Shown: in pieces, positions 9,571-55,468 of the stretch | How positions within the stretch are numbered: the stretch's first letter is position 1 | Layout of the letters: each line of letters starts with the position of its first letter | Origin: an uncultured virus (IMG/VR IMGVR_UViG_3300027973_000050) | Lineage: Duplodnaviria; Heunggongvirae; Uroviricota; Caudoviricetes | DNA: 64,000 nt | Virus record (IMG/VR): IMGVR_UViG_3300027973_000050 | Strand: one strand, 5' to 3' | Translations under genes and position numbers: made by a program | Notes under the pieces: model-generated | What the model saw: only the letters and a program-made list of their open reading frames with translations | What the model was told of the DNA's origin: nothing | Databases searched by the model: none

Positions 9571-9895
9571 CGCCACTGGTCAATGCAGCATAACCAGCAG
9601 TAGGAGTATTAAATCTTAGTACCGTTGTACTGCCACTTACAAATTCTATTTCTGGAAAATTAGCAGTACCAGTTAGGCTCTTATTATCAGTGCCAATTAC
9701 TTCGACAATAGGATATCGAGTACCTAAATTATGTACAATTTCCCAAGTTAATTGTGGTGTTGGCTGTTGAAAAATATAGAAACCACCAATGGCCGTATCG
9801 CCACTGATACCTTGAATACCCTGCGCTCCCTCCTTACCAATTAGTAAGGGATCCCACGTTTGAGTATTAGTATTATATTGTTTTAGGACGCTCAT
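1..9895 (-). CDS. Giant collagen-like fibre protein, (Gly-Val/Leu/Ile-Gln)n interrupted by 18 CBM5/12-like aromatic modules; 3' end outside the window (>3298 aa)
   Basis: ATG at 9895-9893 gives [29 protein letters not shown]...[17 protein letters not shown]...[10 protein letters not shown]. The same frame still reads G-V-Q at positions 2-19. Inserts read e.g. [29 protein letters not shown]...HWQMIVSQG. Absent from the ORF track because there is no stop in the window. Confidence 0.9.
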
Positions 9896-9904
9896 TTATT
9901 TCTT

Positions 9905-10183
9905 CTAACAGTCTTGGGCTTGAGAAAATATAGGTACATTATTCTTCAGCCAACAATATATAGAAGAAAATAGTGTTTTGTCGGTGTCTAAATCATCCAA
10001 AGCTATACTATAAACATCATATCTTACTGGCTGGTACCCTTTATCCCTAGCCTCTTGGCTTAGGTAATACAATATTTTAACTTGAATTGATCGCTTGTCG
10101 CCAGCAATTGATCCAACAATGGCGTAGGAATTGTTGAATCCCATGCCAACTATTGAATTTTCTATGTCTAGAAGCAGCGCCAT
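9905..10183 (-). CDS. Hypothetical protein (92 aa), possibly fibre-associated
   Basis: ORF tightly packed between structural genes, with an AAGGA RBS upstream. Confidence 0.7.
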   Translation of the reverse strand: MALLLDIENSIVGMGFNNSYAIVGSIAGDKRSIQVKILYYLSQEARDKGYQPVRYDVYSIALDDLDTDKTLFSSIYCWLKNNVPIFSQAQDC

Positions 10184-10192
10184 TAGATGTCC

Positions 10193-11302
10193 TTAAGTCT
10201 GATAAAGTTCCAAAGTATTTATCGCTGCCAGCCATCTTATGGTTTTGGAATCTTGACCAGTGACCAAGAGCCTAACACACCCATTTGCGGTGTCGGCAAC
10301 AGCGGAAATACTCCAAGATGCAGCTGAAATATCACCTGCAATCTTTTCGGTAACCGTATCCCCGACCAAAGTTGTAGTACTTGCGTTCGATCCTCTGCTT
10401 GCTAAAAATTTTATATTCCATGTAACGGTCTCTGTTGCTGTTTTGGCTATAATGTCTGCGCTGACTTTATAAGCATAAAAATTAGGTAATACTAAACGAT
10501 TAGTTGTGCCTGCTGTTAGTCCATCAAATGTTAATTCACCTGGAGTATCATCTTCTGTAACAGTTCTTGCCATATAACTGCCATGACTAAAGGTAGGCAT
10601 TGTGATGGAATCAGAGGCAAATGGCATTGCCTGACTGATTGTACTAGTCTGATATCTTAAATGCCCCAGTCCATCTGGTTGTAAAATAATGTCGCCAGCT
10701 TCATTTACTGCCTTAATGGTATTATTTTTAATTTCAATATTACCAATTCGAGCAGCAGGAATATTACCTGAACCTGCCAAACCAGCATACTTATATCCAC
10801 TTACATATAATGATTTACCAGATGTTAATGCTGATGGTATTGTGCCACCAATAAAGTTTAAAACACCAGCTTGATAATCAAAATTCCATTCACCAACGCC
10901 GCCAGTACCGCTATCAAAAATCTGTGTGCCAGTTGATTCTGGATTTGCAGCACTGGGATTATCCACATAAACTTTAACAAAGTATGTAGGACCAAATTCA
11001 GGCGGGATCCAATCTAATACTTCAGTCAACCAAGTGGGATAAATGCCATTAATAGGATTAGTACTTGTATCTGGCATACATTCTATACTGTCAGCACCAA
11101 TATATGGTCTTACAACAAATTCAACTTCGGCAGCAACCGCAGGAATTAAAGATGATTGTGTCCAAATTCTATCGCCGCGGACAAAAACTGGACTACTTAT
11201 AGATTCGTTACTGGGACTTTTATTAGTGCCAATATCAGTCTTGGCAACACCAAAGTATCTTTTGTATAGTAGGTCAACTTTTTGTGAATCAGATATGGCC
11301 AT
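10193..11302 (-). CDS. Putative virion structural protein (369 aa)
   Basis: Co-directional ORF 1 nt from its neighbour; beta-rich composition; structural gene context. Confidence 0.7.
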   Translation of the reverse strand: MAISDSQKVDLLYKRYFGVAKTDIGTNKSPSNESISSPVFVRGDRIWTQSSLIPAVAAEVEFVVRPYIGADSIECMPDTSTNPINGIYPTWLTEVLDWIPPEFGPTYFVKVYVDNPSAANPESTGTQIFDSGTGGVGEWNFDYQAGVLNFIGGTIPSALTSGKSLYVSGYKYAGLAGSGNIPAARIGNIEIKNNTIKAVNEAGDIILQPDGLGHLRYQTSTISQAMPFASDSITMPTFSHGSYMARTVTEDDTPGELTFDGLTAGTTNRLVLPNFYAYKVSADIIAKTATETVTWNIKFLASRGSNASTTTLVGDTVTEKIAGDISAASWSISAVADTANGCVRLLVTGQDSKTIRWLAAINTLELYQT

Positions 11303-43475: not shown

Positions 43476-45212
43476 TTAAACTGGAGGGGGTGCTCCGCCT
43501 GCACCTGCTGTCATACCCATGCCAGTGTCAACTCCTGGAGGCATACCGCCAGCAGCTTGAGCCATATCCTCTGGGGCGCTAGTATCACTGTTTAATTCCA
43601 AATCACTGTCGATGCCAGCAGCACTGACACCTGCACTGCGCAATTCACCACTGGCATCTGTACCAGTAATGTTACTCATGCCCTTTTCCTGCTTCCATAA
43701 GTTTTCGTTTTCTGCCATCTCTTCTTCACTGAGTCCTAAGAATCTCTTCAAGGCAAACCTCTTACTGATATAAGGAATAGCCTGTATGGTATTAAATGTG
43801 TTAATTCTCTGTCCATCAACTTCAGATTGTCGATAAGCAGCAAAGTTCTGAGGTGGTTGAAAACGTATCTCAAATAAACTAGTATCAATATTGATACCTT
43901 TACTGTGCAAATAACGTTTGAATTCCTGATCAAACACACCAGTTAATAAGGTCTGCAAACGTATGCAATAGTTATTAAAACGTAATTCTTGAATATAAGC
44001 AGTACCCACTCTACCATCATTATACTGTGCTTGACTATCATCTGCTCCTGTAGGCAAATAACTGGATGGTATTCTTAATGCTCTAAATAACTTGTTGGTA
44101 AAGTATTTGAGATCGTCAATCTCGCCTAAGTTTGTACCACCTGCTAATGTTTCAACTTTGCTGCCTCTGCCGCCTTCAGTCTGTGGGAAGAAATAATCTT
44201 CACTGATACTTAATGGATTATAAGCACTGTCAATAACATTCATACCACCGCCACTTTGACTGGGAATACGACGCTGATGTATTTCATTTTTAACACGTTC
44301 CACAAAGGCCATGGCCATATGGCTAGGCATATTACCCACATCAATATAAAATATTCTACGCTCTGGCGCACGTTGTATACGATAGATTAAGATGGCATCT
44401 TCTAATAGTTCTTTTTGTTTATATACTTTGAACACTTGTTCTAATAAACTATTTCCAAATGGATAGTTGTTATCTAAACCTTCACTCAAACTTAAATGTA
44501 CCACATGGGCAGCATCAATAGACATTTCATTTTCACCAATATGAAATCTATCTCCATACTGTGTTGGGTACGCACCAGTTGACCCTCTAGTTAGTCCACC
44601 ACCTGCAATATAATTACTACCTCTATTATTAGTTTGCTGAGGACTGGTTTGAATCTGTGTGGCTACTAGATTTTGAAAATTAGGTGCTAGGTCACGCACT
44701 ACGTACTGCTCAGGCTTTTTGCCTTCACTCTCATTCACAATGACTTTGACTAATTTACTAGGATCTACATAAAACCATTTTTGTGTTTCTGGATCTCTAA
44801 TAAAAAACGCATCGCCATACTTGAAAGTATTACGAACTATGCGAAAAAACCTTGTGTCAAATTGTTGTACTTTAAACCATTGTTGTACATATTCTCTTAG
44901 TACTCGTATCTCTGAATTAGTAGCTTTATCTTTAAAACTGAGATGAAAGGTTGTGTTGTTTTCTTTATTTTTCTGTGTGCAAAATTCTGCTAGAATATCT
45001 AGTGCAGCATTAACTTCTGGATCCATGTCCATAGTATCATACTGCATGTAACGTTCTATTCTATTGGGACTGCCTACATAAATGTCTGGCAAGTAGCTAC
45101 TGTAATTGCTACGAGCAGGACCTGCTTTGTTACCGTTGCCCATGGGACTGCTAGTACCAGAAAGATTATTGGTACTGGGTGCTGGGGTAAAATATCTACG
45201 CCAACTCATCAA
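43476..45212 (-). CDS. gp20: Portal protein (T4 gp20-like)
   Basis: LLEDAILIYRIQRAPERRIFYIDVGNMP, EDYFFP, VETLAGG.NLGEIDD..YF..KLFRAL.IP. Confidence 0.95.
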   Translation of the reverse strand: MMSWRRYFTPAPSTNNLSGTSSPMGNGNKAGPARSNYSSYLPDIYVGSPNRIERYMQYDTMDMDPEVNAALDILAEFCTQKNKENNTTFHLSFKDKATNSEIRVLREYVQQWFKVQQFDTRFFRIVRNTFKYGDAFFIRDPETQKWFYVDPSKLVKVIVNESEGKKPEQYVVRDLAPNFQNLVATQIQTSPQQTNNRGSNYIAGGGLTRGSTGAYPTQYGDRFHIGENEMSIDAAHVVHLSLSEGLDNNYPFGNSLLEQVFKVYKQKELLEDAILIYRIQRAPERRIFYIDVGNMPSHMAMAFVERVKNEIHQRRIPSQSGGGMNVIDSAYNPLSISEDYFFPQTEGGRGSKVETLAGGTNLGEIDDLKYFTNKLFRALRIPSSYLPTGADDSQAQYNDGRVGTAYIQELRFNNYCIRLQTLLTGVFDQEFKRYLHSKGINIDTSLFEIRFQPPQNFAAYRQSEVDGQRINTFNTIQAIPYISKRFALKRFLGLSEEEMAENENLWKQEKGMSNITGTDASGELRSAGVSAAGIDSDLELNSDTSAPEDMAQAAGGMPPGVDTGMGMTAGAGGAPPPV

Positions 45213-48200
45213 TGTGCTCCTATTACGTTTCCGCTAGCTGCCGATGCAACTCCCTTAGTAGCTTTAATTTGATCTCTCAGCAATGAACCATTTGAATTAT
45301 TTACTGCAATTAGTTTTTCCATAGCAGTATTTAATTTTTCTAAGGTTTTTACCACGTCGTCTAGGCTTTTTGTTTCGCTCTTCTCACCTGATTTGTCTTT
45401 TTTATCTGCTTCTGCTTTTGTTTTAGCTTCTGCTGCTTTTTTAGACTCTTCAGCTTGTCTGTTAAATTTGGCATTTTCTCTAGCATCATCTGGATTTTCT
45501 ACTTTAGGTAAAGCTTTCTCATCTTTTTTAGGCGGAGCTAAAATTGGCATGCCATTTGGTCCAATTTTAGTCACACTGCCAAATGATATTTTAGATCTGT
45601 CCAATGTATCAGCAGGTTCAGCAGCAGCTTGTTCACTGTACTTGGGTCCAGTGTCCATATTGGCCAAAATGTCCCCGCCATTGGCCTCATTTATTTTGTC
45701 TAGATTTGCTTGTTCTGCTTGTTGATTCTCTAGTTCTTTATTTTGTGCATCTTGGTCAGCAATGGCTTGCATTTCCTCATCAGTAGGGCCAGGTATGAGA
45801 CTTTTTATATCATCCATGACATCTTCTGTACTATCAGCAAAATCATCACCTGAATTTTTTATTCCACGAGCCAAATCTCCCATTGACTCATCAACTACTT
45901 CTGCCAAATTCTGATTGGCCTCATCTAATTGCCGAGCATAATATTCATACTGTTCGCCTATGTCTTCTTCACTGGCCCCCATTAACAAATCATTTAATTT
46001 TTGTTGTGCTTCTTTTTGTCTTTCTATGGCCTTGTCTATGTTATCCTGTGCTTCGGCGGCTTTCATTTCTGCATCAGTGGCACCCTTACTTGGTACTACA
46101 CTGTCAATATCCTCACCAATTTTATCTTTGTCAACATGAGTGAATTTAGCCTGTGCTGCTGTATCAATTTGTGCTGCTTCAAGTTCCTCCTCATTATTAA
46201 TGGCGTCCAACTCCATTTTGTCTCGAGCTGCCTTTTCTGCTGCAAGATCAGCCTCTGATTTACTTGGTACTACACTGTCAATATCCTCACCAATTTTATC
46301 TTTGTCAACGTAACTGAATTTAGCCTGTGCGGCAACATCCGCTTGTGCTGCTTCAAGTTCCTCATCATTATTAATGGCGTCCAACTCCATTTTATCCCGT
46401 GCTTGCTGCTCGGCGCTCTTAAGCTCATTTTCATTTGATTCTTTTTTAACTTTACCTAAGGCCTCATCTAGTTTGGCTTGCTCTTCTAAATTACGTTTAA
46501 GATTATTTTCAGCTCTTATTACACCATTCTGAAATGTTTTTAATTGACGTTGTTCTTCATTTGTTAAATCTCTTTCACCAGCTATTTCTCGTAATGCAGC
46601 TACTCTAGCTTGGTTAGCTGCCAGTCTATCCTCAATGCCTTCTCGGCGTTTTGCTAGGTCTTCTGATTTTTTTGTTAGATCTTGCATACTTTGAACTGGC
46701 AAGGCATCCTTCATGTCTTTAGAAATGTCTTTTGATTTTTCTGCAACTAGTACTTGTAATGCTTTATATTCGTCATTACTTTTTGCATTTGCTTCACGTT
46801 CACGTTCTTGTTTTTCTTTAAGAGGTTTTTCAATAGCCTCAATTTCTGCTTGTTCCTTTTCTGTCAAGGCACGATTAGCAGTAAGAGCTTGATATTTTAT
46901 AGCATCTGTTCTAGCGTTAACATCAGCTATCTCCTCCATAGCTGCACGATTTTTATCTTTATTAGCCGTTAATCGTGCATTGGCTTCTTCTAATGTCAAT
47001 CCTGACATTTCTTTAAGCATTGATTTTTGATCACTGGTTAAATCGTCAGCAGCCTTTTTCTTAAAATTCCATTCTTCATCAAGATTTTTTTGTGTAGTTT
47101 CTAAAATAGACTTTTTAGTATCTAACTCCTTTGCTGCTCCCTCTTCTAAATCTTTACTAATTTGTGCTTGAAAAGCTTTCATACGTTCCATTGCGGCTTC
47201 TGCTTCTGTCATTCGATCGCCGCCACCAGCTCTGCCCGCACCACCTTCGCCACCTTTGGCTTTGGCTAGATTAGCTTGGGTCATCTCCATCAGTTTGGCT
47301 AACTGTGGATTAGCTGCCATTTTCTTGTCAAAGTCTTCCTTGCTAACTTCCTTTCCATTAAAAGAATAAGACTGAGAACTGTTGGGAGAGGTTGGCTCTA
47401 CTTTAGATTCTTTTTGATTTTTAGCTCTTGCTGCTTCCAATGAGGCAAGATCTTCACGGGCTATTGCTGCCTCATCATCATCAGCTTTTTTAGACTCTAC
47501 TTTTTTAGGCTCTATTTTAGGCTGTTCTTTTTTAGGTTCTTCTTTTTTAGGTTCTTCTTTTTTAGGTTCTTCTTTTTTAGGTTCAGCTGCTTTGGCAGCA
47601 GGTGCAGGTTGTGTTTGTACTGCTGTAAGTTTTTTTAATTCTGTAAGTTCTTTTGGCCAGTTAGATACTTCTACCTTACTGACTGTGGTCTTAATATCTG
47701 TGAGTATTTTATTGATGTCAATACCAGGCATCTTAACAGTACCAGCACCACTAGCAGCACCAAGTTCGCCAGTCATGCCTTTGATATCAAATTTTGCTTT
47801 GGAACTATCAGATAATTGTTTGGCTAATTTCTTAGTGGAGTCAGGATCCAACACAGTTTCATCTTTGTGAATTTTAACTAGTGCATCCATAGGTTCTATT
47901 GGGCTACCAGTTTTTTCCAATGTACCGCCATCTCTAGTTCCAGGCTTTGGAGCAACAAATGAGTTTACCGCTCCAGCTGCTTTCCCAGTTATAAATCCTA
48001 CCATTTCTGCAGCGGTAGGAGTACCTTCGCCAGTCTTGGCCTTTTGCATACCTGATTTGGTGGCTTCTTCCCCCTTCTTGGTAAACGTTTTAAATACCCC
48101 GCTTGCACCAAGAACATCTTCATTCAATCTTTTTAATGAAGGACTTAACTCTTTATTCAGAGGCTGAACAAGTCCACTCATTACTGCTGATTCAACATCC

Positions 48201-49423
48201 TTCATTCTTTGATTAAAATTTACAGTTGCTTTGGTTGATTCATCAGTGGCGTTTTGCTGTGCTGCAACTGTCTTCTCATACTCTTCCGCAGCCTCGTCAG
48301 TATCTACTTTTCTACCTAATTTTTGCTCCATCTCCTTTCGAGTTTTTTCAACGCCCTCTGCGTGAGTTTGATTGGCAGCGGCAAATTTTGAAAACGAGCC
48401 GCCAATCTCGGTTAATCCAGATTGCACTATCATTTGATTTTGAGCAGCGTTATTTCTTAATTTGTCCGCTTCTACCTGAGACTCTTTGGATTTTTTCTTA
48501 GCGTCCTCAAAATTTCCATCGGCTGCCAATTTGGCCTGTTCAGATGTGGCTATGGCAGACTTACCACCAGCAACTACTTGTCCTATTGCTTCTTTAGTTA
48601 CCGCAGTACCATATAAAAAAGTCTCTTTAAATAACTGACCTTGACCTCGAGCATTGGCAGCAGCATACTGCTGATCCATCTTCAATTTATACTCAGCAGC
48701 TTCCTTATCACTCATGTTTTGAGTTGCTAAACGCAACTTAGCTTGATAAGCCTGATCAGCTGCCAATTTCTTTTGAGCATCCATCTGCTCTTCACGACTC
48801 TTGCCAGTTAGTTTGGCCATGAGATCCATTTCTCTGGCCATGTCAGTTGTGGCTTTGATGGCTAACTCGTCTCTTTCTTTACCCGATGCCATACTGGCAC
48901 CAATAGAACCCATCTGCATTGCTAGTAATTCATTTAGATCCTTATTGGTATACCCTAAATTACGTAGACTATCAGTTGCCGTGGTGCTCTCATCAAACAT
49001 TTTTTTACTGGCAGCAGCAAATTCCTTAGCACCCTTGTCAAGGCTGCCACCAAATCCTGATAGACTAGCCTTGTTTTGATCAAGAATATCATTAAATTCA
49101 TTCAGACCTAGTCTTGCACCTTTTGCGGCGGTCTGCATGTCTACAATACTGTTGCCAAAACTTATACCAGTTTTACTAAGATTTTGCCATGCTGGTAACC
49201 CAGCATTAATATCTTCAGCAACTTTTAAAAATGCTGAAGAAGCGCCCTTTGTTGGGCCATCCATGCTCTTTAAAGCACTTGTAAAAGAACCCAGTGCTTC
49301 ATTAGACGATTTGGTATCACCTCCGCCACCACGACCACCGCCACCACTGCCTTTCATGGCTTTTGCCAGTTTTTCTACACTTTCATCTGATAAAGTAATA
49401 GGGGTTCCTGAAGGATCAGCCAT
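45209..49423 (-). CDS. Tape-measure-like protein (1404 aa)
   Basis: Ala/Lys/Glu-rich helical protein with MDLMAKLTGKSREEQ-type segment; close to the chaperone-like gene. Confidence 0.6.
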   Translation of the reverse strand: MADPSGTPITLSDESVEKLAKAMKGSGGGGRGGGGDTKSSNEALGSFTSALKSMDGPTKGASSAFLKVAEDINAGLPAWQNLSKTGISFGNSIVDMQTAAKGARLGLNEFNDILDQNKASLSGFGGSLDKGAKEFAAASKKMFDESTTATDSLRNLGYTNKDLNELLAMQMGSIGASMASGKERDELAIKATTDMAREMDLMAKLTGKSREEQMDAQKKLAADQAYQAKLRLATQNMSDKEAAEYKLKMDQQYAAANARGQGQLFKETFLYGTAVTKEAIGQVVAGGKSAIATSEQAKLAADGNFEDAKKKSKESQVEADKLRNNAAQNQMIVQSGLTEIGGSFSKFAAANQTHAEGVEKTRKEMEQKLGRKVDTDEAAEEYEKTVAAQQNATDESTKATVNFNQRMKDVESAVMSGLVQPLNKELSPSLKRLNEDVLGASGVFKTFTKKGEEATKSGMQKAKTGEGTPTAAEMVGFITGKAAGAVNSFVAPKPGTRDGGTLEKTGSPIEPMDALVKIHKDETVLDPDSTKKLAKQLSDSSKAKFDIKGMTGELGAASGAGTVKMPGIDINKILTDIKTTVSKVEVSNWPKELTELKKLTAVQTQPAPAAKAAEPKKEEPKKEEPKKEEPKKEQPKIEPKKVESKKADDDEAAIAREDLASLEAARAKNQKESKVEPTSPNSSQSYSFNGKEVSKEDFDKKMAANPQLAKLMEMTQANLAKAKGGEGGAGRAGGGDRMTEAEAAMERMKAFQAQISKDLEEGAAKELDTKKSILETTQKNLDEEWNFKKKAADDLTSDQKSMLKEMSGLTLEEANARLTANKDKNRAAMEEIADVNARTDAIKYQALTANRALTEKEQAEIEAIEKPLKEKQEREREANAKSNDEYKALQVLVAEKSKDISKDMKDALPVQSMQDLTKKSEDLAKRREGIEDRLAANQARVAALREIAGERDLTNEEQRQLKTFQNGVIRAENNLKRNLEEQAKLDEALGKVKKESNENELKSAEQQARDKMELDAINNDEELEAAQADVAAQAKFSYVDKDKIGEDIDSVVPSKSEADLAAEKAARDKMELDAINNEEELEAAQIDTAAQAKFTHVDKDKIGEDIDSVVPSKGATDAEMKAAEAQDNIDKAIERQKEAQQKLNDLLMGASEEDIGEQYEYYARQLDEANQNLAEVVDESMGDLARGIKNSGDDFADSTEDVMDDIKSLIPGPTDEEMQAIADQDAQNKELENQQAEQANLDKINEANGGDILANMDTGPKYSEQAAAEPADTLDRSKISFGSVTKIGPNGMPILAPPKKDEKALPKVENPDDARENAKFNRQAEESKKAAEAKTKAEADKKDKSGEKSETKSLDDVVKTLEKLNTAMEKLIAVNNSNGSLLRDQIKATKGVASAASGNVIGAH

Positions 49424-50500: not shown

Positions 50501-51319
50501 ATGAACAATCCCCTACAAAAATTCTTTAGACAACCTAAAATTTATATTAGCTTGCCCAGTAAAGGAGTTTACTATGAACCTGGAGCCCTGGTGGGAGATC
50601 ATACACACTTCCCCATATTGGCCATGACAGGCATTGACGAAATACTAGTCAAAACTCCAGACGCATTGTTTAACGGTGAGTCCACAATTAGAATTATAGA
50701 AAGCTGTTGTCCTTATATTAAAGATGCTAAAAACATCCCAGTCATCGATATTGATACTATACTGGCTGGAATTAAGATTGCCACATTTGGAAATAATGTG
50801 ACAGTGACTAAAACTTGCAATAAATGCGGCACTGAAAATGATTACGACATACCATTAAACTCAATTATTGATTATTTTAGCAATTTAAAATTCAGTAATA
50901 AAATCACCATCCAAGATAATTTAGAAATTATTATTCGTCCATTAAAATACAGTGAAATGAGTTATTTTAGCATGGAAAATTTTAAACTTCAAAAAACTTT
51001 AAATCAAACAACAGATCTAAGTGAGGAAGATAAAAAAGCTAAAATTAATGAAATTTACATAAGACTCAGTGAACTTCAAATAGAATTATTTTTAATGGCT
51101 GTGGAAAATGTCATAGTAGACGACATAGTGGTCACAGAAAAACAATACATTGAAGAATGGTTGAAGAATGTTGAAAAGACCGTGTTTGGCACTATCAAAA
51201 AGAAAATAGAAGAAAATAAAAACCTATGGGAAATTCCAGAAACACCAGTAGTATGCGATGAATGTGGTGCTGACAATAAAATCCAACTGAGTTTGGATCA
51301 ATCAAGTTTTTTCGGCTAA
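50501..51319 (+). CDS. Baseplate hub assembly protein (T4 gp26-like)
   Basis: ISLPSKG, MTGIDEILVK, DIDTILAGIKIAT, two CxxC motifs, C-terminal SSFF. Confidence 0.8.
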   Translation: MNNPLQKFFRQPKIYISLPSKGVYYEPGALVGDHTHFPILAMTGIDEILVKTPDALFNGESTIRIIESCCPYIKDAKNIPVIDIDTILAGIKIATFGNNVTVTKTCNKCGTENDYDIPLNSIIDYFSNLKFSNKITIQDNLEIIIRPLKYSEMSYFSMENFKLQKTLNQTTDLSEEDKKAKINEIYIRLSELQIELFLMAVENVIVDDIVVTEKQYIEEWLKNVEKTVFGTIKKKIEENKNLWEIPETPVVCDECGADNKIQLSLDQSSFFG

Positions 51320-51546
51320 GACTCCTTTACGCCTCAAACTCTGATATTGAACAATATATTAATAAATTAGATCTTGAAGCTTTAGAGTTCAAAGAAGATT
51401 TATATAAAATAGCATGGTATATGAGAGGAGGAGTCACAGCCAATGACCTACTATACCTTTATAGTTATGAAGATAGAAAGATAATGTATAAGATTATCAA
51501 AGACAATATTGAAACAACTAATAAAACTGGTATGCCATTAATTTAA
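51307..51546 (+). CDS. gp51-like reading frame, probably reached by -1 frameshift from the gp26-like gene
   Basis: Open -1 frame FFRLRLLYASNSDIEQYINKLDLEALEFKEDLYKIAWYMRGGVTANDLLYLYSYEDRKIMYKIIKDNIETTNKTGMPLI*; no ATG/GTG/TTG before 51421; slippery T TTT TTC at 51307-51313. Confidence 0.65.
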   Translation, partial: FFRLRLLYASNSDIEQYINKLDLEALEFKEDLYKIAWYMRGGVTANDLLYLYSYEDRKIMYKIIKDNIETTNKTGMPLI

Positions 51547-51549
51547 TAT

Positions 51550-51987
51550 TTGAGAGTGAGCAAGCTCACTCTGTTTTAAGACTCACGTCTTAAAACATTT
51601 TTCTTCAGCGAAGCTTTTTAATATTATGCAGATTGTGTGGACGTACTTCTCCCGTTGCCGGGAGAACGAAAGACATTATGCGAGTTGCTTAGTCCGATAC
51701 TATATTAGGGCATTACAGAGGCGGTCATCCTGTACCTCGAGCCCAGTCTTCTATACGACGGGAAATAATTAAACAAATATAGTCTTGCCTAACTACCGTG
51801 GGGTTGTATCTTTTTCATCAGAGCCCCTTCTTTTAGCCTGTTAATCCTTTTCAAACAACCAAATAGCGGCATTTTGCTATCCTCATCCTTGCGGGTAGTG
51901 GTTGAGTCCTCCTAACGGCTGGAGTTTTTCATCCCTGTGACACGCATGTCCAGGTATAGAATCGCATGAAATTAGCCTGCGCCAGCT
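51550..51987 (-). ncRNA. Candidate large structured ncRNA (unidentified family)
   Basis: Non-coding, more GC-rich than its flanks, many stems with GNRA/CUUG loops and G-U pairs valid only on the minus strand, plus a predicted pseudoknot. Confidence 0.6.
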
Positions 51988-52428
51988 TTAACCGTTTAAC
52001 TGTTTGCCTATGATGTGTTTGCCGTGAACTCTGACCTGAATATGCCCGTTGTAGTAATCGTTACTTTCTAATACACGCCTTGAAAATTGTTCTCTTGCCT
52101 CAATATAACTACATTCACTTTTGGTTTTACAAAAGTAAAGTATGTCGCGCCTAAAATTTTCTTTGCCTAATGTTAATACGTCTTTGTTGAGTTCGTCGTT
52201 GGAGCCATAATATTCTTGCCAGTCACTTTCTATTTTGCCTCGAATCTTTTTTCTTTTCTTTGTGCCGTTTTTCAGCTTAACAACCTTATAGGTGGTTTTG
52301 GCGAACTTGGCAAGTTTTTTGCCTATGTATTTTTTATCTGTGGTTAAATTTGTTATGATGTAGACAAAGCCTATATAATCTCCTGAGATTTCTGTGACTA
52401 GTTGATCTTGATAATACCATGACATCAA
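51988..52428 (-). CDS. Stand-alone GIY-YIG nuclease domain protein (Seg-like catalytic domain only)
   Basis: GFVYIITNLTTDKKYIGKK, YYGS, ENF.R.IL, conserved E, YYN. Confidence 0.8.
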   Translation of the reverse strand: MMSWYYQDQLVTEISGDYIGFVYIITNLTTDKKYIGKKLAKFAKTTYKVVKLKNGTKKRKKIRGKIESDWQEYYGSNDELNKDVLTLGKENFRRDILYFCKTKSECSYIEAREQFSRRVLESNDYYNGHIQVRVHGKHIIGKQLNG

Positions 52429-52683
52429 CTATATAGCGTCTTTCTCTGCCTGTTCCTGTGCCTTTTGAAGTTGTTTTTGTGCCTTTTCTTTTTCTATTGC
52501 TCTGCGCCATACTTGAATTTCCTGCCTTCGCATGATGGCGTAATGACGTATTTCACTGAGCCAATGCCTAGTGTCCATGCCTGCTCTACGTGTGCCTTTG
52601 GCCAACCATGCTTGATTGGCTTTGAAATATTCTCTAAAAGCTTCCATTAATTTGTCATGCAATTCTTCATCTCTTGGAATCAT
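52429..52683 (-). CDS. Small helical basic protein, histone H1-like Hc1-type
   Basis: KGTRRAGMDTRHWLSEI..MRRQEIQ resembles the G(N/T)KAAGTRARK.L.E motif. Confidence 0.5.
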   Translation of the reverse strand: MIPRDEELHDKLMEAFREYFKANQAWLAKGTRRAGMDTRHWLSEIRHYAIMRRQEIQVWRRAIEKEKAQKQLQKAQEQAEKDAI

Positions 52684-54458
52684 TCAACTATCTCCAAATC
52701 ATTGGCATAGCTAGTATAGCCATTTTCTTTGATGACCTTCAACACATTGTTTACACGGCCAATCAATTCATCCTTATGACTGATCAAGTAGATATTTTTG
52801 TTACGTTCACGTGCCATCTTTTTGAGTACAGCCAACGCACCCTCTACTCCACTAGCATCTAATCCGTTGTCAATAAGTTCGTCAATGAACAATAAATTAA
52901 TATTGTCATATAAACTTTCCCACACATCACGGAAACTCCAGCTTAGACCTAAGATTAATCTATTACGTTCGCCACGTGACAAGTTGTCAAAGTCCAAGTC
53001 TTGACCCAACTGTGTAATTTCCACTGTGAGATCATTTTGAAACCTAACCACATGTGGCAGTCCCATCTTGTCTAAGTAGTAGGTCAATCTATTATTGAGA
53101 TAGGCCAAGTTTTGATCAATAATTTTCTTACGAATAAAACTGTCCTTGCTGGTCAATAATTTAAGTAAAAATTCCTGATGTTCTTTTAGTTTGTTTAGTT
53201 GGTTAACACGATCCCAACTAACTTCCTGTATGGCTGTATTGCGTAATTCGTCAATCTGTTCTTGATAAGGGTCTACTTCATCACTGCGTTTGACTAATGC
53301 TTCTTCCAAACTGGTCAAATTGTTTTGATGTTTCAATGCCTGTTCTACGGTGTCGTAAAATGTTTCAGGTCGTCCGTTTATATCACCGATGTCTTTGATT
53401 TCTTTTTGAATCTTTTTCAAACTGGCTGAAGTTTTTTTATAATATTCTTTAGCCTCATTGAAGTTTTCCAAGGCAGTCTCAGTCATTTCACCATGTTTAT
53501 GATCCAATAACTGTTGTTGACAAGAAGGGCAAGATTTGTCAGCAAGTTGTTCCACTTCTTTCTTGTACTTGTTCACGGACTTTTCAGCCTGACCAACAGC
53601 AGTTTCTAATGTGGCTTTTTCCTTGTTGAGACTACGAATCTTAGCCGACAACTCGTCATAACTTTTTAGTAGAGCATGTTGAGCCAGTTCATGTTCGATG
53701 TCAATGTTTTGTAGTTCTAAAATCTTTTCAGCAACTTTTTCACAATCATCTTTCTGTTGTTTACACCATGCTCGTTGCTTGGTCGTTAGCCCTGTAATGC
53801 TTTGTTCAATACGATCATTACTCTTTTTAGTAGCTTCAATGTTAGCTGACTCTTGATTAATTTCGTCTTTGGTTAGTCTAACTTGTTCCTTTAAGCTTTC
53901 ACTTTTTTCACTGAGTAAAGTAACACCAAGTAATTGTTCAATGATCATTCGTTGATCAGCAGATCGCATACTGAGAAATGGTTCAGTATAGGTATTAAGT
54001 GCCACAATATGTTTGAACATGTCGTGACTCATACCTAGAAGTGTGTCTAAATCACGTTGAGTTTCTCTGACATCACCTTGACTTTCGTCAACATTGTCAG
54101 TGTCTTGCTCCTCTCCATTGATAAAAAATCTAAAAATATTAGGTCTACGACCACGTTCTATTTTATAGCTTACACCGTTCTTTTCAAAATTCAGTGTGAC
54201 CAACATGTTCTTATTATTGGTCTTGTTGACTAGGTTATCTTTCTTAATATTAGTAAGAGCCTGACCAAATAAGGCATAACTTAAGGCATTGACAATGGTG
54301 GTTTTGCCTGTGCCATTTCGACTACCACTGTCATCGCCACCTTGATCCAGATTTTCACCTAGAACCAATGTCAGTTGTTCTTTACAAAAATCCACAGCCT
54401 GAGTTTGATTACCCACGCTCATGAAATTCTTAACAGTTAAATCTTTGATACGAATCAT
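52680..54458 (-). CDS. gp46: Recombination endonuclease ATPase subunit (gp46/SbcC/Rad50)
   Basis: KNFMSVGN, Walker A NGTGKTT, CPSC hook, LSRGE signature, LLFIDE, ISH. Confidence 0.95.
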   Translation of the reverse strand: MIRIKDLTVKNFMSVGNQTQAVDFCKEQLTLVLGENLDQGGDDSGSRNGTGKTTIVNALSYALFGQALTNIKKDNLVNKTNNKNMLVTLNFEKNGVSYKIERGRRPNIFRFFINGEEQDTDNVDESQGDVRETQRDLDTLLGMSHDMFKHIVALNTYTEPFLSMRSADQRMIIEQLLGVTLLSEKSESLKEQVRLTKDEINQESANIEATKKSNDRIEQSITGLTTKQRAWCKQQKDDCEKVAEKILELQNIDIEHELAQHALLKSYDELSAKIRSLNKEKATLETAVGQAEKSVNKYKKEVEQLADKSCPSCQQQLLDHKHGEMTETALENFNEAKEYYKKTSASLKKIQKEIKDIGDINGRPETFYDTVEQALKHQNNLTSLEEALVKRSDEVDPYQEQIDELRNTAIQEVSWDRVNQLNKLKEHQEFLLKLLTSKDSFIRKKIIDQNLAYLNNRLTYYLDKMGLPHVVRFQNDLTVEITQLGQDLDFDNLSRGERNRLILGLSWSFRDVWESLYDNINLLFIDELIDNGLDASGVEGALAVLKKMARERNKNIYLISHKDELIGRVNNVLKVIKENGYTSYANDLEIVE

Positions 54459-55468
54459 AAGTTGTTATAGATATCTAGTAAAAGGTTTACGTCGTAAGTG
54501 TCGCTTTCTACACTGATTAATTGATTCATCACAATCTGATCCACACTTTCAAATGCCTTAATATTAGTGTCGCTGGTCAATTCTACTTCACGCTTTTCTG
54601 GAATCAAGGTCAATTCTCTGATGTCATAATCCGCTAAGTAAGTTTCTTTGATAAAACTGGCTTCTTCATAGCTGATGTCAATGTCCAATGTGACTCTAAG
54701 ATGTTGTTTGGGTTTGATAATCTTGGCGCCGTTGTCAATCAGTTCGCTAAGTTTGACAGTTCTAAATGTGGGTTGATTGGGCCAACTATAATATTCTGGC
54801 TGCCCTCCCCATTCTAGTACGCACATACCACGATCATCATCCCAAGCATCTGCATAATTGTGTGGGAATGCATTGCCAATATAGATCATGTTCTTTTGTT
54901 GTTGACGTTTGTGGAAGTGTCCACTAAAGCCAAGTTCATAATTTTGAAAGTGTTCTAGTTTAATCTCACCGTGATCTGGCATCTGTACCATAGCGTTCAT
55001 AAAAAAGCTAGGTAATTCAAAGTGACCAAAGATATATTTGCCACCCTTTTTGCCTATGCTTTTCCATTCATCACCTACTAGCCAAGGACACATGGTCACA
55101 TTGCCCACGGTCATGGGTTTGTGTACTATGGTAATTCCTGGAATATACTTGCCAAATTCTACGCTGTGAATATCACGTTTGTCTTTGTAGTATAAGTCAT
55201 GATTGCCAGGAAAAAAGTAAAATTGATCAAATGCCTGTCCTAGTTTTTCCAAGGACCTAAGACTATAATCCATGGTAGTAATATTAAGGCTATTGCGATT
55301 ATGATGCCAATCGCCCATAAAAATTCCAACATCACAGTCTAGTTTCTTTGCTTTGGTAATGTACCAATCTACAAAATCTTCACAGTCTTGATTATGTGTG
55401 GCGCTGTTACTTTTAAGTCCAAAGTGTATGTCTGTGAATAGGGCCACACGTTTAAAAAGATTTGTCAT
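54455..55468 (-). CDS. gp47: Recombination endonuclease nuclease subunit (gp47/SbcD/Mre11)
   Basis: DIHFG, GDWHH, GNHD, GHFE and SGHFH metallophosphoesterase motifs. Confidence 0.95.
   Translation of the reverse strand: MTNLFKRVALFTDIHFGLKSNSATHNQDCEDFVDWYITKAKKLDCDVGIFMGDWHHNRNSLNITTMDYSLRSLEKLGQAFDQFYFFPGNHDLYYKDKRDIHSVEFGKYIPGITIVHKPMTVGNVTMCPWLVGDEWKSIGKKGGKYIFGHFELPSFFMNAMVQMPDHGEIKLEHFQNYELGFSGHFHKRQQQKNMIYIGNAFPHNYADAWDDDRGMCVLEWGGQPEYYSWPNQPTFRTVKLSELIDNGAKIIKPKQHLRVTLDIDISYEEASFIKETYLADYDIRELTLIPEKREVELTSDTNIKAFESVDQIVMNQLISVESDTYDVNLLLDIYNNL

What the first reader, a model, noticed from the sequence alone, without database searches (positions are those of the whole stretch)
51550..51987. 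~440-nt ornate structured RNA candidate starting at the stop codon of a minimal GIY-YIG nuclease
Seen, minus strand: this is the only long non-coding stretch in a gene-dense window, and it is full of stems. They include CCTG-GACA-TGCG-TGTC-ACAGG; CC-GCAA-GG; ATAGC..GCTAT; GGGG..CCCC; and GGGC..GAGG..CCTC..GCCC. An 11-bp stem TAGTTAGGCAA/TTGTTTAATTA (51795-51766, three G-U pairs) has a loop GACTATAT complementary to ATATAGT at 51705-51699, predicting a pseudoknot. TTCTCCCG-GCAA-CGGGAGAA lies at 51666-51647. Two terminal perfect hairpins carry GTGA and CTTG loops (51597-51553). CAGGCTAA and GCATAAT each occur twice. GNRA/CUUG loops and G-U pairs favour a minus-strand RNA co-transcribed with the nuclease. 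Inference: a nuclease-plus-RNA ribonucleoprotein (by analogy with HEARO/OMEGA RNAs next to HNH/RuvC nucleases), or a stand-alone large phage RNA of the ROOL/GOLLD type.
Basis: partly seen in the sequence, partly recalled or inferred. Interest (0 to 1): 0.82.

Follow-up and report, generated by a model that had tools for sequence, protein, structure and literature searches.

The report
Large phage RNA beside swappable nuclease
A freshwater T4-like phage carries a real, heavily folded RNA of about 435 bases whose first third is already catalogued as an orphan motif, and the small DNA-cutting enzyme gene next to it looks like a frequent but exchangeable neighbour.

Summary
Window 51553-51987 (minus strand) is a conserved structured RNA of about 435 nt. 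It starts one base after the stop codon of a 146-aa SegE-type GIY-YIG gene.

Its first 135 nt are a full-length match to Rfam RF01718, Polynucleobacter-1 (105 bits, cut-off 37). The remaining 300 nt match no Rfam family but are at least as conserved. About half of the relatives found through this core lack the Rfam domain.

On 83 non-redundant homologues, 83% of the cells in the proposed pairs are standard pairs.

In viral contigs a nuclease gene lies beside the RNA in most loci. It is usually GIY-YIG, on either strand, sometimes with other genes in between. Six loci in all carry an unrelated PD-(D/E)XK nuclease instead, scattered over the RNA tree, and four carry neither.

The full-length RNA also sits in 16 of 141 Polynucleobacter genomes, with no GIY-YIG. 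The GIY-YIG family occurs in 458 cultured phage records in which no close copy of the RNA was found.

I therefore read it as an autonomous large RNA with an exchangeable nuclease neighbour, not an obligate ribonucleoprotein.

One feature is unexplained. Two direct 7-mers in the core stay identical to each other while varying between lineages.

The parts
51553..51987 (-). Whole structured RNA, about 435 nt. RNA position p corresponds to window coordinate 51988-p.
   Evidence: nhmmer profile hits span nearly the full length in relatives. Covariation on A3.
51853..51987 (-). 5' domain, equal to Rfam RF01718 Polynucleobacter-1 (helices P1-P6)
   Evidence: cmscan: 105.4 bits, cut-off 37, model positions 1-141 of 141. 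Helices 1-9 are 83-99% paired.
51800..51827 (-). P7 hairpin (GGGG...CCCC), variable in length
   Evidence: 75.6% of cells paired; 4 of 4 pairs change on both sides (helix 10).
51766..51795 (-). P8 hairpin, 11 bp. Its loop (51782-51777) forms the 5' strand of the pseudoknot.
   Evidence: 77-81% paired; 11 of 11 pairs change on both sides (helices 11-12).
51700..51705 (-). 3' strand of the pseudoknot (ATATAG), pairing with the P8 loop
   Evidence: 87.5% paired; 6 of 6 pairs change on both sides, e.g. GC:55 UA:11 AU:9 (helix 13). Also found blind.
51708..51744 (-). P10/P11 hairpin holding the near-invariant core GGTAC.G....ACCGCC (51737-51721)
   Evidence: P10 is 87% paired with 4 of 4 pairs changed on both sides. 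P11 is 97.8% paired. Invariant columns in A3.
51754..51759 (-). 5' strand of the long-range helix P9, pairing with 51640-51645
   Evidence: 91.5% paired, but only one-sided G-U/A-U/C-G changes; the window itself has one U-U.
51675..51681 (-). R1: first copy of the concertedly evolving 7-mer (GCATAAT), within ACTCGCATAATG
   Evidence: R1 equals R2 in 105 of 115 parsed homologues. Normalised MI 0.75-1.00.
51647..51666 (-). P12 hairpin TTCTCCCG-GCAA-CGGGAGAA, between R1 and R2
   Evidence: 93.4% paired in the register of the relatives; 4 pairs change on both sides (helix 19).
51623..51629 (-). R2: second copy of the 7-mer (GCATAAT), within AATCTGCATAATA
51553..51596 (-). Two terminal hairpins (GTGA and CTTG loops). 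The first, read on the plus strand, also looks like the terminator of the convergent gp26 operon.
   Evidence: In relatives the last hairpin is 90% paired, with 6 of 6 pairs changed on both sides (helix 24). Plus-strand terminator-like site at 51572-51597.
51988..52428 (-). 146-aa SegE-type GIY-YIG gene. Its stop codon abuts the RNA.
   Evidence: PF19835, E 1.3e-32, residues 4-130. phrog_447. Invariant Y, Y, G, R, E and N columns in A2.

Best explanation
Window 51553-51987 (minus strand) encodes an autonomous, trans-acting structured RNA of about 435 nt. It is the full-length form of the family that Rfam knows only by its 141-nt 5' domain (Polynucleobacter-1, RF01718).

Shown:
- A 5' domain (P1-P6).
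- An A-rich linker.
- A pseudoknotted core (P7-P12) with a near-invariant GGUAC...ACCGCC hairpin.
- Two terminal hairpins.

Inferred: in this phage the RNA is made as the 3' part of the transcript of the upstream GIY-YIG gene. That gene is a homing-endonuclease-like neighbour. It, or a PD-(D/E)XK nuclease, has repeatedly settled on the RNA gene's 5' flank and probably spreads the RNA by co-conversion. It is not an obligate protein partner.

For the RNA's own action, my most likely reading is this (inferred, weakly). The folded core is a scaffold that displays two identical single-stranded elements (R1 and R2, about 52 nt apart). These would bind two copies of one partner: a dimeric protein or a repeated nucleic-acid sequence. 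This would happen during infection, or from a Polynucleobacter genomic island.
For: RNA and family:
- RF01718 hit at 105.4 bits.
- Conservation runs about 300 nt past the Rfam model.
- Covariation on 83 sequences: 83.4% paired against 68.9% in shuffles, score 0.378 against 0.162, 0 of 500 shuffles as high, slid controls at most 0.093.
- The pseudoknot covaries at 6 of 6 pairs.
- Strand: invariant or common G-U pairs in P6, P9 and P11.
- The core is wider than the Rfam motif. 6 of 20 homologous loci have no RF01718 or any other Rfam hit. 57 of 110 RNAs found through the core lack the 5' domain by profile.

Autonomy:
- 16 of 141 Polynucleobacter genomes carry RF01718 above the cut-off, including the Rfam seed position.
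- 8 of the 13 loci other than the phage contig L375 (12 from Polynucleobacter genomes, one from the Haliscomenobacter MAG) match the RNA profile over positions 12/13 to 406-415. No GIY-YIG was found in any of the 13 loci.
- No GIY-YIG was found in 5 of those genomes with this query.
- The GIY-YIG family is in 458 cultured phage records, while the RNA finds no match in that collection by blastn. The Melnitz and P-HM1 loci have no RNA.

Exchangeable neighbour:
- Of 68 core-found RNA loci with enough upstream DNA, 47 have GIY-YIG adjacent, 5 have it with a gap, 7 have it on the other strand, 5 have PF24608 PD-(D/E)XK, and 4 have neither.
- The 6 PD-(D/E)XK-linked RNAs lie in at least 5 places on the RNA tree.
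- No GIY-YIG residue tracks the R1/R2 variants cleanly.

Two identical elements:
- R1 equals R2 in 105 of 115 RNAs, with 8 variants in phages and others in bacteria.
- Normalised MI is 0.75-1.00, and the next best column is at most 0.49.
Against: - A nuclease gene of one kind or the other lies within about 1.5 kb in 64 of the 68 core-found viral loci. In the first set, 71 of 73 loci have GIY-YIG upstream and one of the remaining two has PD-(D/E)XK. That is more constant than selfish homing genes usually are (recalled expectation). It leaves room for a functional tie.
- No nuclease pseudogene was seen, and the catalytic-type residues are invariant.
- Transcription is not shown. Only assembled contigs of RNA libraries were laid, and only one of them (a related strain, 47 differences) bridges the ORF and the first 229 nt of the RNA.
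- The partner of R1/R2 is unknown. No complementary sequence was found in the RNA or within about 2 kb.
- The loci are not independent. Several contigs were fetched in more than one set, and many are close relatives.
- The homing activity of the nucleases is inferred from family names only.
Confidence: 0.5

Rival explanations
1. Nuclease-RNA functional module. The RNA binds, aims or regulates the adjacent minimal nuclease (GIY-YIG, or PD-(D/E)XK as a substitute), as omega RNAs do for IscB and TnpB. R1 and R2 would be the specificity elements.
For: - Tight linkage both ways: 63 of 73 RNA loci and 66 of 75 GIY-YIG loci.
- The linkage survives changes of orientation and of surrounding genes.
- A nuclease of some fold lies nearby in 64 of 68 viral loci.
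- The GIY-YIG protein has only the catalytic domain (Pfam covers residues 4-130 of 146) plus a lysine-rich insert.
- R1 and R2 vary quickly between lineages, at least 19, 3, 10 and 6 changes at four positions.
Against: - The RNA exists in bacteria without the GIY-YIG.
- The GIY-YIG family exists widely without the RNA, and 9 of 75 close GIY-YIG loci have none within 960 nt or more.
- Two unrelated nuclease folds swap at least 5 times. That is hard to reconcile with one RNA-protein interface.
- No protein residue follows the R variants: best normalised MI is 0.33 and 0.46 for the two fast positions.
- No target-like complement was found.
- 7 nt is short for a guide.
Confidence: 0.2
2. Cis-acting 3' untranslated element. 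The structure stabilises, terminates or regulates the GIY-YIG or gp46 operon transcript and also terminates the convergent gp26 operon.
For: - The RNA starts at the stop codon, with no promoter-like site in between.
- It sits at the end of the transcription unit even when other genes separate it from GIY-YIG.
- A plus-strand terminator-like hairpin lies at 51572-51597.
- One RNA-library contig bridges the ORF and the RNA.
Against: - 435 nt with a covarying pseudoknot is far more than a terminator needs.
- In bacteria the same RNA stands alone, divergent from a DUF6641 gene.
- In 7 viral loci the nuclease gene is on the other strand.
- In 4 viral loci the neighbouring genes are unrelated.
Confidence: 0.1
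3. DNA-level element: an origin, a recombination site, or iteron-like direct repeats (R1 and R2) read by a DNA-binding protein.
For: - R1 and R2 are direct repeats that evolve in concert, as iterons or recombination cores do.
- A 188-aa tyrosine recombinase gene lies within about 1.2 kb downstream in 6 of 9 bacterial loci examined.
Against: - Helices keep pairing through G-U and compensatory changes that fit one strand only, including a pseudoknot.
- The R1-R2 spacing varies between 47 and 59 nt.
- The 5' domain is a curated RNA family.
Confidence: 0.05

Closest known systems
Polynucleobacter-1 RNA motif (Rfam RF01718; Weinberg et al. 2010, PMC2864571)
   Same: Window 51853-51987 is a full-length member (105.4 bits). 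The habitat matches: the paper's table lists 'Burkholderiales, fresh water/estuary'. The seed alignment holds the Polynucleobacter chromosome position that I found again.
   Different: The family is defined as a 141-nt motif. Here, and in the bacterial copies, it is only the 5' third of a 420-470-nt RNA. The 3' core is conserved without it in about half of the core-found relatives. Only one paper in the searched library names the motif.
Free-standing homing endonuclease genes of T4-type phages (Seg/Mob), e.g. SegB inside the T4 tRNA gene cluster (recalled, not from a call)
   Same: The gene is in the SegE GIY-YIG Pfam family. It is placed beside a highly conserved RNA gene. It alternates with an unrelated nuclease at the same spot in related genomes. 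It also occurs at other sites.
   Different: The protein has no separate DNA-binding domain (146 aa). It is present in nearly all loci rather than sporadically. Its family is near-universal in cultured cyanomyoviruses. No cleavage or homing has been tested.
Large ornate RNAs ROOL, GOLLD and OLE (homo-oligomers by cryo-EM; PMC12286853, search listing and start of abstract only)
   Same: It is a large RNA of unknown function, rich in pseudoknots and conserved loops, and shared between phages and bacterial mobile DNA.
   Different: There is no Rfam match to these families. No tRNA genes lie in the window. Oligomer formation is untested.
OMEGA/HEARO systems (IscB/TnpB with omega RNA) and IS110 bridge RNA (recalled; reviews listed, not read)
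   Same: A structured RNA lies next to a small DNA-cutting or DNA-joining enzyme. Two short, fast-varying elements sit on a conserved scaffold.
   Different: RNA and enzyme are each found without the other. The enzymes are GIY-YIG or PD-(D/E)XK, not RuvC or HNH. No complementary target was found. The two variable elements are identical to each other rather than independent.

Membership tests
Rfam RF01718 Polynucleobacter-1 RNA | Covariance-model score at or above the curated gathering score (37 bits), over the whole model | tested here: met
   105.4 bits, E 8.6e-22, model positions 1-141 of 141, window 51853-51987 minus strand.
Rfam RF01718 Polynucleobacter-1 RNA | The model's helices are kept with covariation in relatives | tested here: met
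   Helices 1-9 on A3 are 83-99% paired; most pairs change on both sides.
Rfam RF01718 Polynucleobacter-1 RNA | The RNA is the 141-nt unit described | tested here: not met
   Conservation and covarying helices continue for about 300 nt downstream, in phages and in Polynucleobacter chromosomes.
GIY-YIG nuclease, SegE type (PF19835) | Profile match above the cut-off | tested here: met
   E 1.3e-32, 113 bits (cut-off 25), residues 4-130 against profile positions 1-123 of 123.
GIY-YIG nuclease, SegE type (PF19835) | Conserved GIY and YIG tyrosines, and Arg, Glu and Asn of the active site (roles recalled from I-TevI) | tested here: met
   Invariant Y23, Y34, G36, R94/R112, E110/E113 and N127 in 9 diverse homologues. 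Catalysis itself was not tested.
Free-standing homing endonuclease (Seg-like) | A separate DNA-binding domain that gives site specificity | tested here: not met
   The protein has 146 aa and only about 16 residues beyond the catalytic-domain profile. No solved relative was found by sequence.
Free-standing homing endonuclease (Seg-like) | Sporadic presence, and replacement by other nuclease genes at the same site in related genomes | tested here: inconclusive
   Replacement by PF24608 nucleases in 6 loci, at 5 or more places on the RNA tree. However, GIY-YIG is present in most loci, and only 4 of 68 have no nuclease.
Free-standing homing endonuclease (Seg-like) | Cleaves the nuclease-less allele and is copied into it | not testable with these tools
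   Needs cleavage and co-infection assays.
RNA-guided nuclease system (OMEGA/HEARO type) | Nuclease and RNA always occur together | tested here: not met
   The RNA occurs without GIY-YIG in bacteria and in 4 viral loci. GIY-YIG occurs without the RNA in 9 of 75 close loci and in the cultured phages inspected.
RNA-guided nuclease system (OMEGA/HEARO type) | A variable guide segment complementary to a target | tested here: inconclusive
   R1 and R2 vary (8 variants), but no exact complement recurs within about 2 kb in 68 loci or in the RNA. Distant targets were not searched.
ROOL / GOLLD / OLE large ornate RNAs | Match to the family's covariance model | tested here: not met
   No such hit in the window at the gathering threshold, or at E up to 10 around the region.
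Group I intron carrying a GIY-YIG ORF | Intron core match and flanking exons of one interrupted gene | tested here: not met
   No intron family at E up to 10. The GIY-YIG start directly abuts the upstream ORF's end (52428/52429), and the downstream genes are convergent.
Intrinsic or bidirectional terminator | G+C-rich hairpin followed by a T run, accounting for the element | tested here: not met
   One plus-strand terminator-like site at 51572-51597. It covers 26 of the 435 nt. No such site was found on the minus strand.

The most novel reading that the evidence does not exclude
The RNA is a general aiming scaffold for minimal DNA-cutting or DNA-joining enzymes that lack DNA-binding domains of their own. 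These would be GIY-YIG or PD-(D/E)XK nucleases in phages, and the 188-aa catalytic-domain-only tyrosine recombinase beside it in Polynucleobacter islands. Its two identical, fast-evolving 7- to 11-nt elements (R1 and R2) would read the same short sequence on two DNA partners or two sites, as the loops of bridge RNAs do. That would be a new class of RNA-directed DNA enzymes with interchangeable effectors.
Probability: 0.1. Interest if true: 0.92.

Novelty: new variant of a known kind. Interest (0 to 1): 0.6.

Why it matters
It is also shared with genomic islands of Polynucleobacter, presumably their host.
- This gives the family a full architecture and a conserved core that Rfam lacks. It also gives a reproducible genomic setting beside swappable nucleases.
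- It adds a candidate to the short list of large bacterial and phage RNAs of unknown function.
- The two direct 7-mers that stay identical through dozens of changes are a kind of constraint that ordinary base-pairing does not explain. They offer a sharp experimental handle: single against matched double mutants.

Tried and rejected
- **First pattern.** CCTGG-N11-CACAGGGATG returned 54 loci, of which only 4 were homologous by blastn; three more (L005, L020, L025) later proved true with the RNA profile. The rest were chance.
- **Genome-contig scan.** 120 loci were returned; only L246 and L278 are true. L199, at E 8e-4 over 60 nt, I treat as chance.
- **G001.** This is the nearest held virus record, a 44.5-kb fragment. 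It has no RF01718, which says nothing.
- **blastn of the RNA against cultured phages.** No match.
- **mafft-qinsi.** Not installed.
- **RNAalifold on a MAFFT alignment.** It recovered only part of the structure. I built the model from a blind pair scan instead.
- **Helix between the 6-8 nt before R1 and before R2.** Longest runs average 3.54 against 3.26 +/- 0.10 with shuffled partners (maximum 3.57), and 53.8% are paired on A3. Not supported; dropped.
- **Outer stem of the first 3' hairpin and the UUC hairpin.** Poorly aligned (48-77% paired). Left open.
- **Partner for R1/R2.** I found no covarying column and no recurrent exact complement within about 2 kb. R1 and R2 are not self-complementary by inspection.
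- **Small ORF starting at R1's AUG.** Rejected, because the R1-R2 spacing is not kept in multiples of three.
- **CsrA-type GGA sites.** Rejected by inspection: about 40% of the variants have AGA or GCA.
- **Link between GIY-YIG residues and R variants.** None is clean.
- **PDB sequence search with the GIY-YIG profile.** No relative at E up to 1.
- **RNA-library runs.** Four were laid, all as contigs. Cover stops at 51759 in the one contig that enters the RNA, and the others cover only the ORF. This shows neither transcription nor its absence.
- **Not run.** Protein structure prediction, complex prediction, a covariance model of my own, and the metagenome-contig scan.

Full report
**What is in the window**

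The window is a T4-like myovirus. On the minus strand lie gp47 (54455-55468, Metallophos, phrog_100) and gp46 (52680-54458, phrog_77). After them come an 84-aa ORF and a 146-aa protein (51988-52428). That protein matches PF19835, SegE_GIY-YIG (E 1.3e-32, residues 4-130), and phrog_447.

Convergent on the plus strand are a gp26-type baseplate hub (50501-51319) and a small open frame (51322-51546). Between them, 51547-51987 has no ORF. With ORFs of 60 aa or more, 51320-51987 is the only uncovered stretch of 200 nt or more in the 64 kb. No tRNA or tmRNA is found.

**The first third is a known family**

Rfam's only hit in the window is RF01718, Polynucleobacter-1. It lies at 51853-51987 on the minus strand and scores 105.4 bits against a cut-off of 37, over the whole model.

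A permissive scan of 51300-52200 adds only two insignificant matches. The rest of the element has no Rfam family.

The motif was published in 2010 (PMC2864571). I read the table row ('Burkholderiales, fresh water/estuary'), and passages of two supplementary files that include the start of the seed alignment. It is the only paper in the searched library that names the motif. My memory that the motif was said to lie upstream of genes related to a cyanophage gene comes from no call.

**The RNA is three times longer than the motif**

- Two pattern scans of viral contigs based on the 5' domain gave 174 loci.
- A profile built from 36 non-redundant homologues then marked 112 of 128 oriented sequences, the window included, as true. 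The other 16 were chance matches. Hits span nearly the whole 422-position profile.
- A scan based on the 3' core returned 120 loci, 110 of them true. Of these, 57 lack the 5' domain by profile.
- Of 20 diverse homologous loci, 14 have RF01718 and 6 have no Rfam hit at all.

The 3' core is therefore the more widely kept part.

**Structure**

A blind scan for stacked covarying columns found the Rfam helices plus new ones.

On A3 (83 sequences, MAFFT) I counted my model of 99 pairs, with these results:

| Measure | Observed | Control |
|---|---|---|
| Cells paired | 83.4% | 68.9% in shuffles |
| Covariation score | 0.378 | 0.162 in shuffles (0 of 500 as high) |
| Covariation score, partners slid 1-3 columns | | at most 0.093 |

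New helices:

| Helix | Cells paired | Pairs changed on both sides |
|---|---|---|
| P7 | 75.6% | 4 of 4 |
| P8 | 77-81% | 11 of 11 |
| Pseudoknot | 87.5% | 6 of 6 |
| P10 | 87% | 4 of 4 |
| P11 | 97.8% | 2 of 5 (3 invariant) |
| P12 | 93.4% | 4 of 8 |
| Last hairpin | 90% | 6 of 6 |

P9 is 91.5% paired but shows one-sided changes only. Frequent or invariant G-U pairs fix the strand.

The caveats are these. The alignment is not structure-aware, the sequences are related, and part of the model was derived from the same family. Folding energy alone is unremarkable (z -1.86).

**Linkage to nucleases in viral contigs**

*Starting from the RNA's 5' domain.* Of 81 sequences with 520 nt or more upstream, 8 were chance matches. 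Of the other 73:
- 63 have GIY-YIG directly upstream on the same strand;
- 8 have it further upstream (one cluster of 4 with a 207-nt gap, and 4 loci with one or two genes in between);
- 2 have none. L097 has only 557 nt of upstream DNA. L101 has a PF24608 PD-(D/E)XK nuclease instead.

*Starting from the protein.* There are 584 relatives, and the best 80 were kept. Of the 75 with enough downstream DNA, 66 have the RNA. In the other 9, another gene follows GIY-YIG at once, within 3 nt of its stop, overlapping it in most.

*Starting from the core.* Of 68 loci with enough upstream DNA:

| Neighbour | Loci |
|---|---|
| GIY-YIG adjacent | 47 |
| GIY-YIG with a gap | 5 |
| GIY-YIG on the other strand | 7 |
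| PF24608 PD-(D/E)XK | 5 |
| Neither (neighbours: a redoxin, an Mtd_N protein, an ATE_C/GNAT-like protein and an unknown) | 4 |

The three sets overlap in contigs and contain close relatives, so these are not independent counts. On a tree of 99 RNA cores, the 6 PD-(D/E)XK-linked RNAs sit at 5 or more separate places among GIY-YIG-linked ones.

**Each partner occurs without the other**

- RF01718 is above the cut-off in 16 of 141 Polynucleobacter genomes sampled, and in 4 of 151 genomes of the order. One hit is at the seed alignment's own coordinates.
- The chromosomal copies are full length. The profile matches from position 12 or 13 to position 406-415 in 8 of the 13 loci other than the phage contig L375 (12 from Polynucleobacter genomes, one from the Haliscomenobacter MAG). 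It is split in 2 loci and partial in 3.
- These copies keep the core, R1/R2 and the 3' hairpin motif.
- They lie divergent from a DUF6641 gene. In 6 of 9 loci they lie upstream of a 188-aa Phage_integrase-family gene. In the one genome I examined more widely, they sit inside about 11 kb of mostly unknown genes.
- No GIY-YIG was found in those loci, or in 5 of the genomes with this query.
- Conversely, the GIY-YIG family is in 458 cultured phage records, all below 60% identity and mostly cyanomyoviruses.
- The RNA finds nothing in that collection by blastn. The Melnitz and P-HM1 loci have coding genes and no RNA match downstream.

**The unexplained repeats**

Two 7-mers flank P12: R1 at 51681-51675 and R2 at 51629-51623.

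- They are identical to each other in 105 of 115 parsed RNAs. Of the 10 exceptions, 8 are parsing errors and 2 differ at the last base.
- They take 8 forms in phages and other forms in bacteria.
- Normalised mutual information between the copies is 0.75-1.00. No other column exceeds 0.49.
- On a tree of 87 RNAs with the repeats masked, the four variable positions need at least 19, 3, 10 and 6 changes. Recombination and tree error inflate these numbers.
- I found no complementary partner and no clean tie to GIY-YIG residues.

**Expression**

Twenty runs hold part of the stretch, and six are RNA libraries. Four were laid, all as contigs.

One 653-nt contig of a related strain spans 51759-52406, that is, the ORF and the first 229 nt of the RNA. 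The others cover only the ORF. This is compatible with co-transcription but does not show it.

**Verdict**

The element is a real large RNA, a full-length form of a family known only in part.

I rank the readings as follows:

| Reading | Probability |
|---|---|
| Autonomous RNA with an exchangeable, homing-endonuclease-like neighbour | 0.5 |
| Nuclease-RNA module | 0.2 |
| Cis-acting 3' element | 0.1 |
| DNA-level element | 0.05 |

It came to the same reading. I treat it as a lead, not as support.

Noticed in passing
window 51322-51546 (+): An open frame of 74 codons directly after gp26. It is homologous to the 72-aa proteins that follow gp26 in relatives (motif ...WYMRGG...IIKDN.ETT.K.G.P). 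It has no ATG, GTG or TTG before 51421, so its start is non-canonical or it is read another way.
   Followed up: partly
L066, L082, L109, L145 (5' side); L068, L078, L107, L130 (3' side): Eight viral contigs end inside the RNA's 5' domain: four begin 15-37 nt before CACAGGGATG and four stop 69-90 nt after its start. This is probably assembly breakage at a stretch shared by co-occurring strains. I did not test it.
   Followed up: no
L246 (MAG named Polynucleobacter sp.), L278/L376 (MAG named Haliscomenobacter sp.): L246, a 9.2-kb contig binned into a bacterial MAG, is a T4-like phage fragment (gp47, gp46, 72-aa ORF, GIY-YIG, RNA). The 6.5-kb L278/L376 contig carries the RNA; its genes were not examined. 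The bin name should not be read as the RNA's host.
   Followed up: partly
G113, G022, G042, G002: Four Polynucleobacter assemblies carry two copies of the RNA. In G113 the copies are 18 kb apart on one chromosome. In G002 one copy is on the phage-fragment contig C80 (L246/L375).
   Followed up: no
L389 (G039:C1:2121000-2140900), RNA at about 9773-10248: In the chromosome that holds the Rfam seed copy, the RNA lies in about 11 kb of mostly unknown genes with lower G+C. These include DUF6641, a 188-aa catalytic-domain-only tyrosine recombinase and an AAA ATPase. The region sits between ordinary genes (patatin, YcaO) and looks like an integrated element.
   Followed up: partly
homologues in A3, columns about 696-742; not in the window: In most phage and bacterial copies, the first 3' hairpin carries a conserved UGAGCG-N2-4-AGCGAA motif (inner GC/GC pairs about 90% kept). 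The window has a plain GTGA-loop hairpin instead.
   Followed up: no
GenBank cyanophage records: The homologous 140-160-aa GIY-YIG proteins are annotated 'NAD synthetase' in many records and in phrog_447. That conflicts with the SegE GIY-YIG profile match.
   Followed up: no
L414:749-1168 (-): An RNase H gene (PF00075, E 2e-44) lies between the PD-(D/E)XK nuclease gene and the RNA in one viral locus.
   Followed up: no
window 45209-49423 (-): A 1404-aa low-complexity, repeat-rich protein (Lys/Glu/Ala-rich, with internal duplications such as ...ARDKMELDAINN[DE]EELEAAQ...) downstream of the baseplate genes. It was not examined.
   Followed up: no
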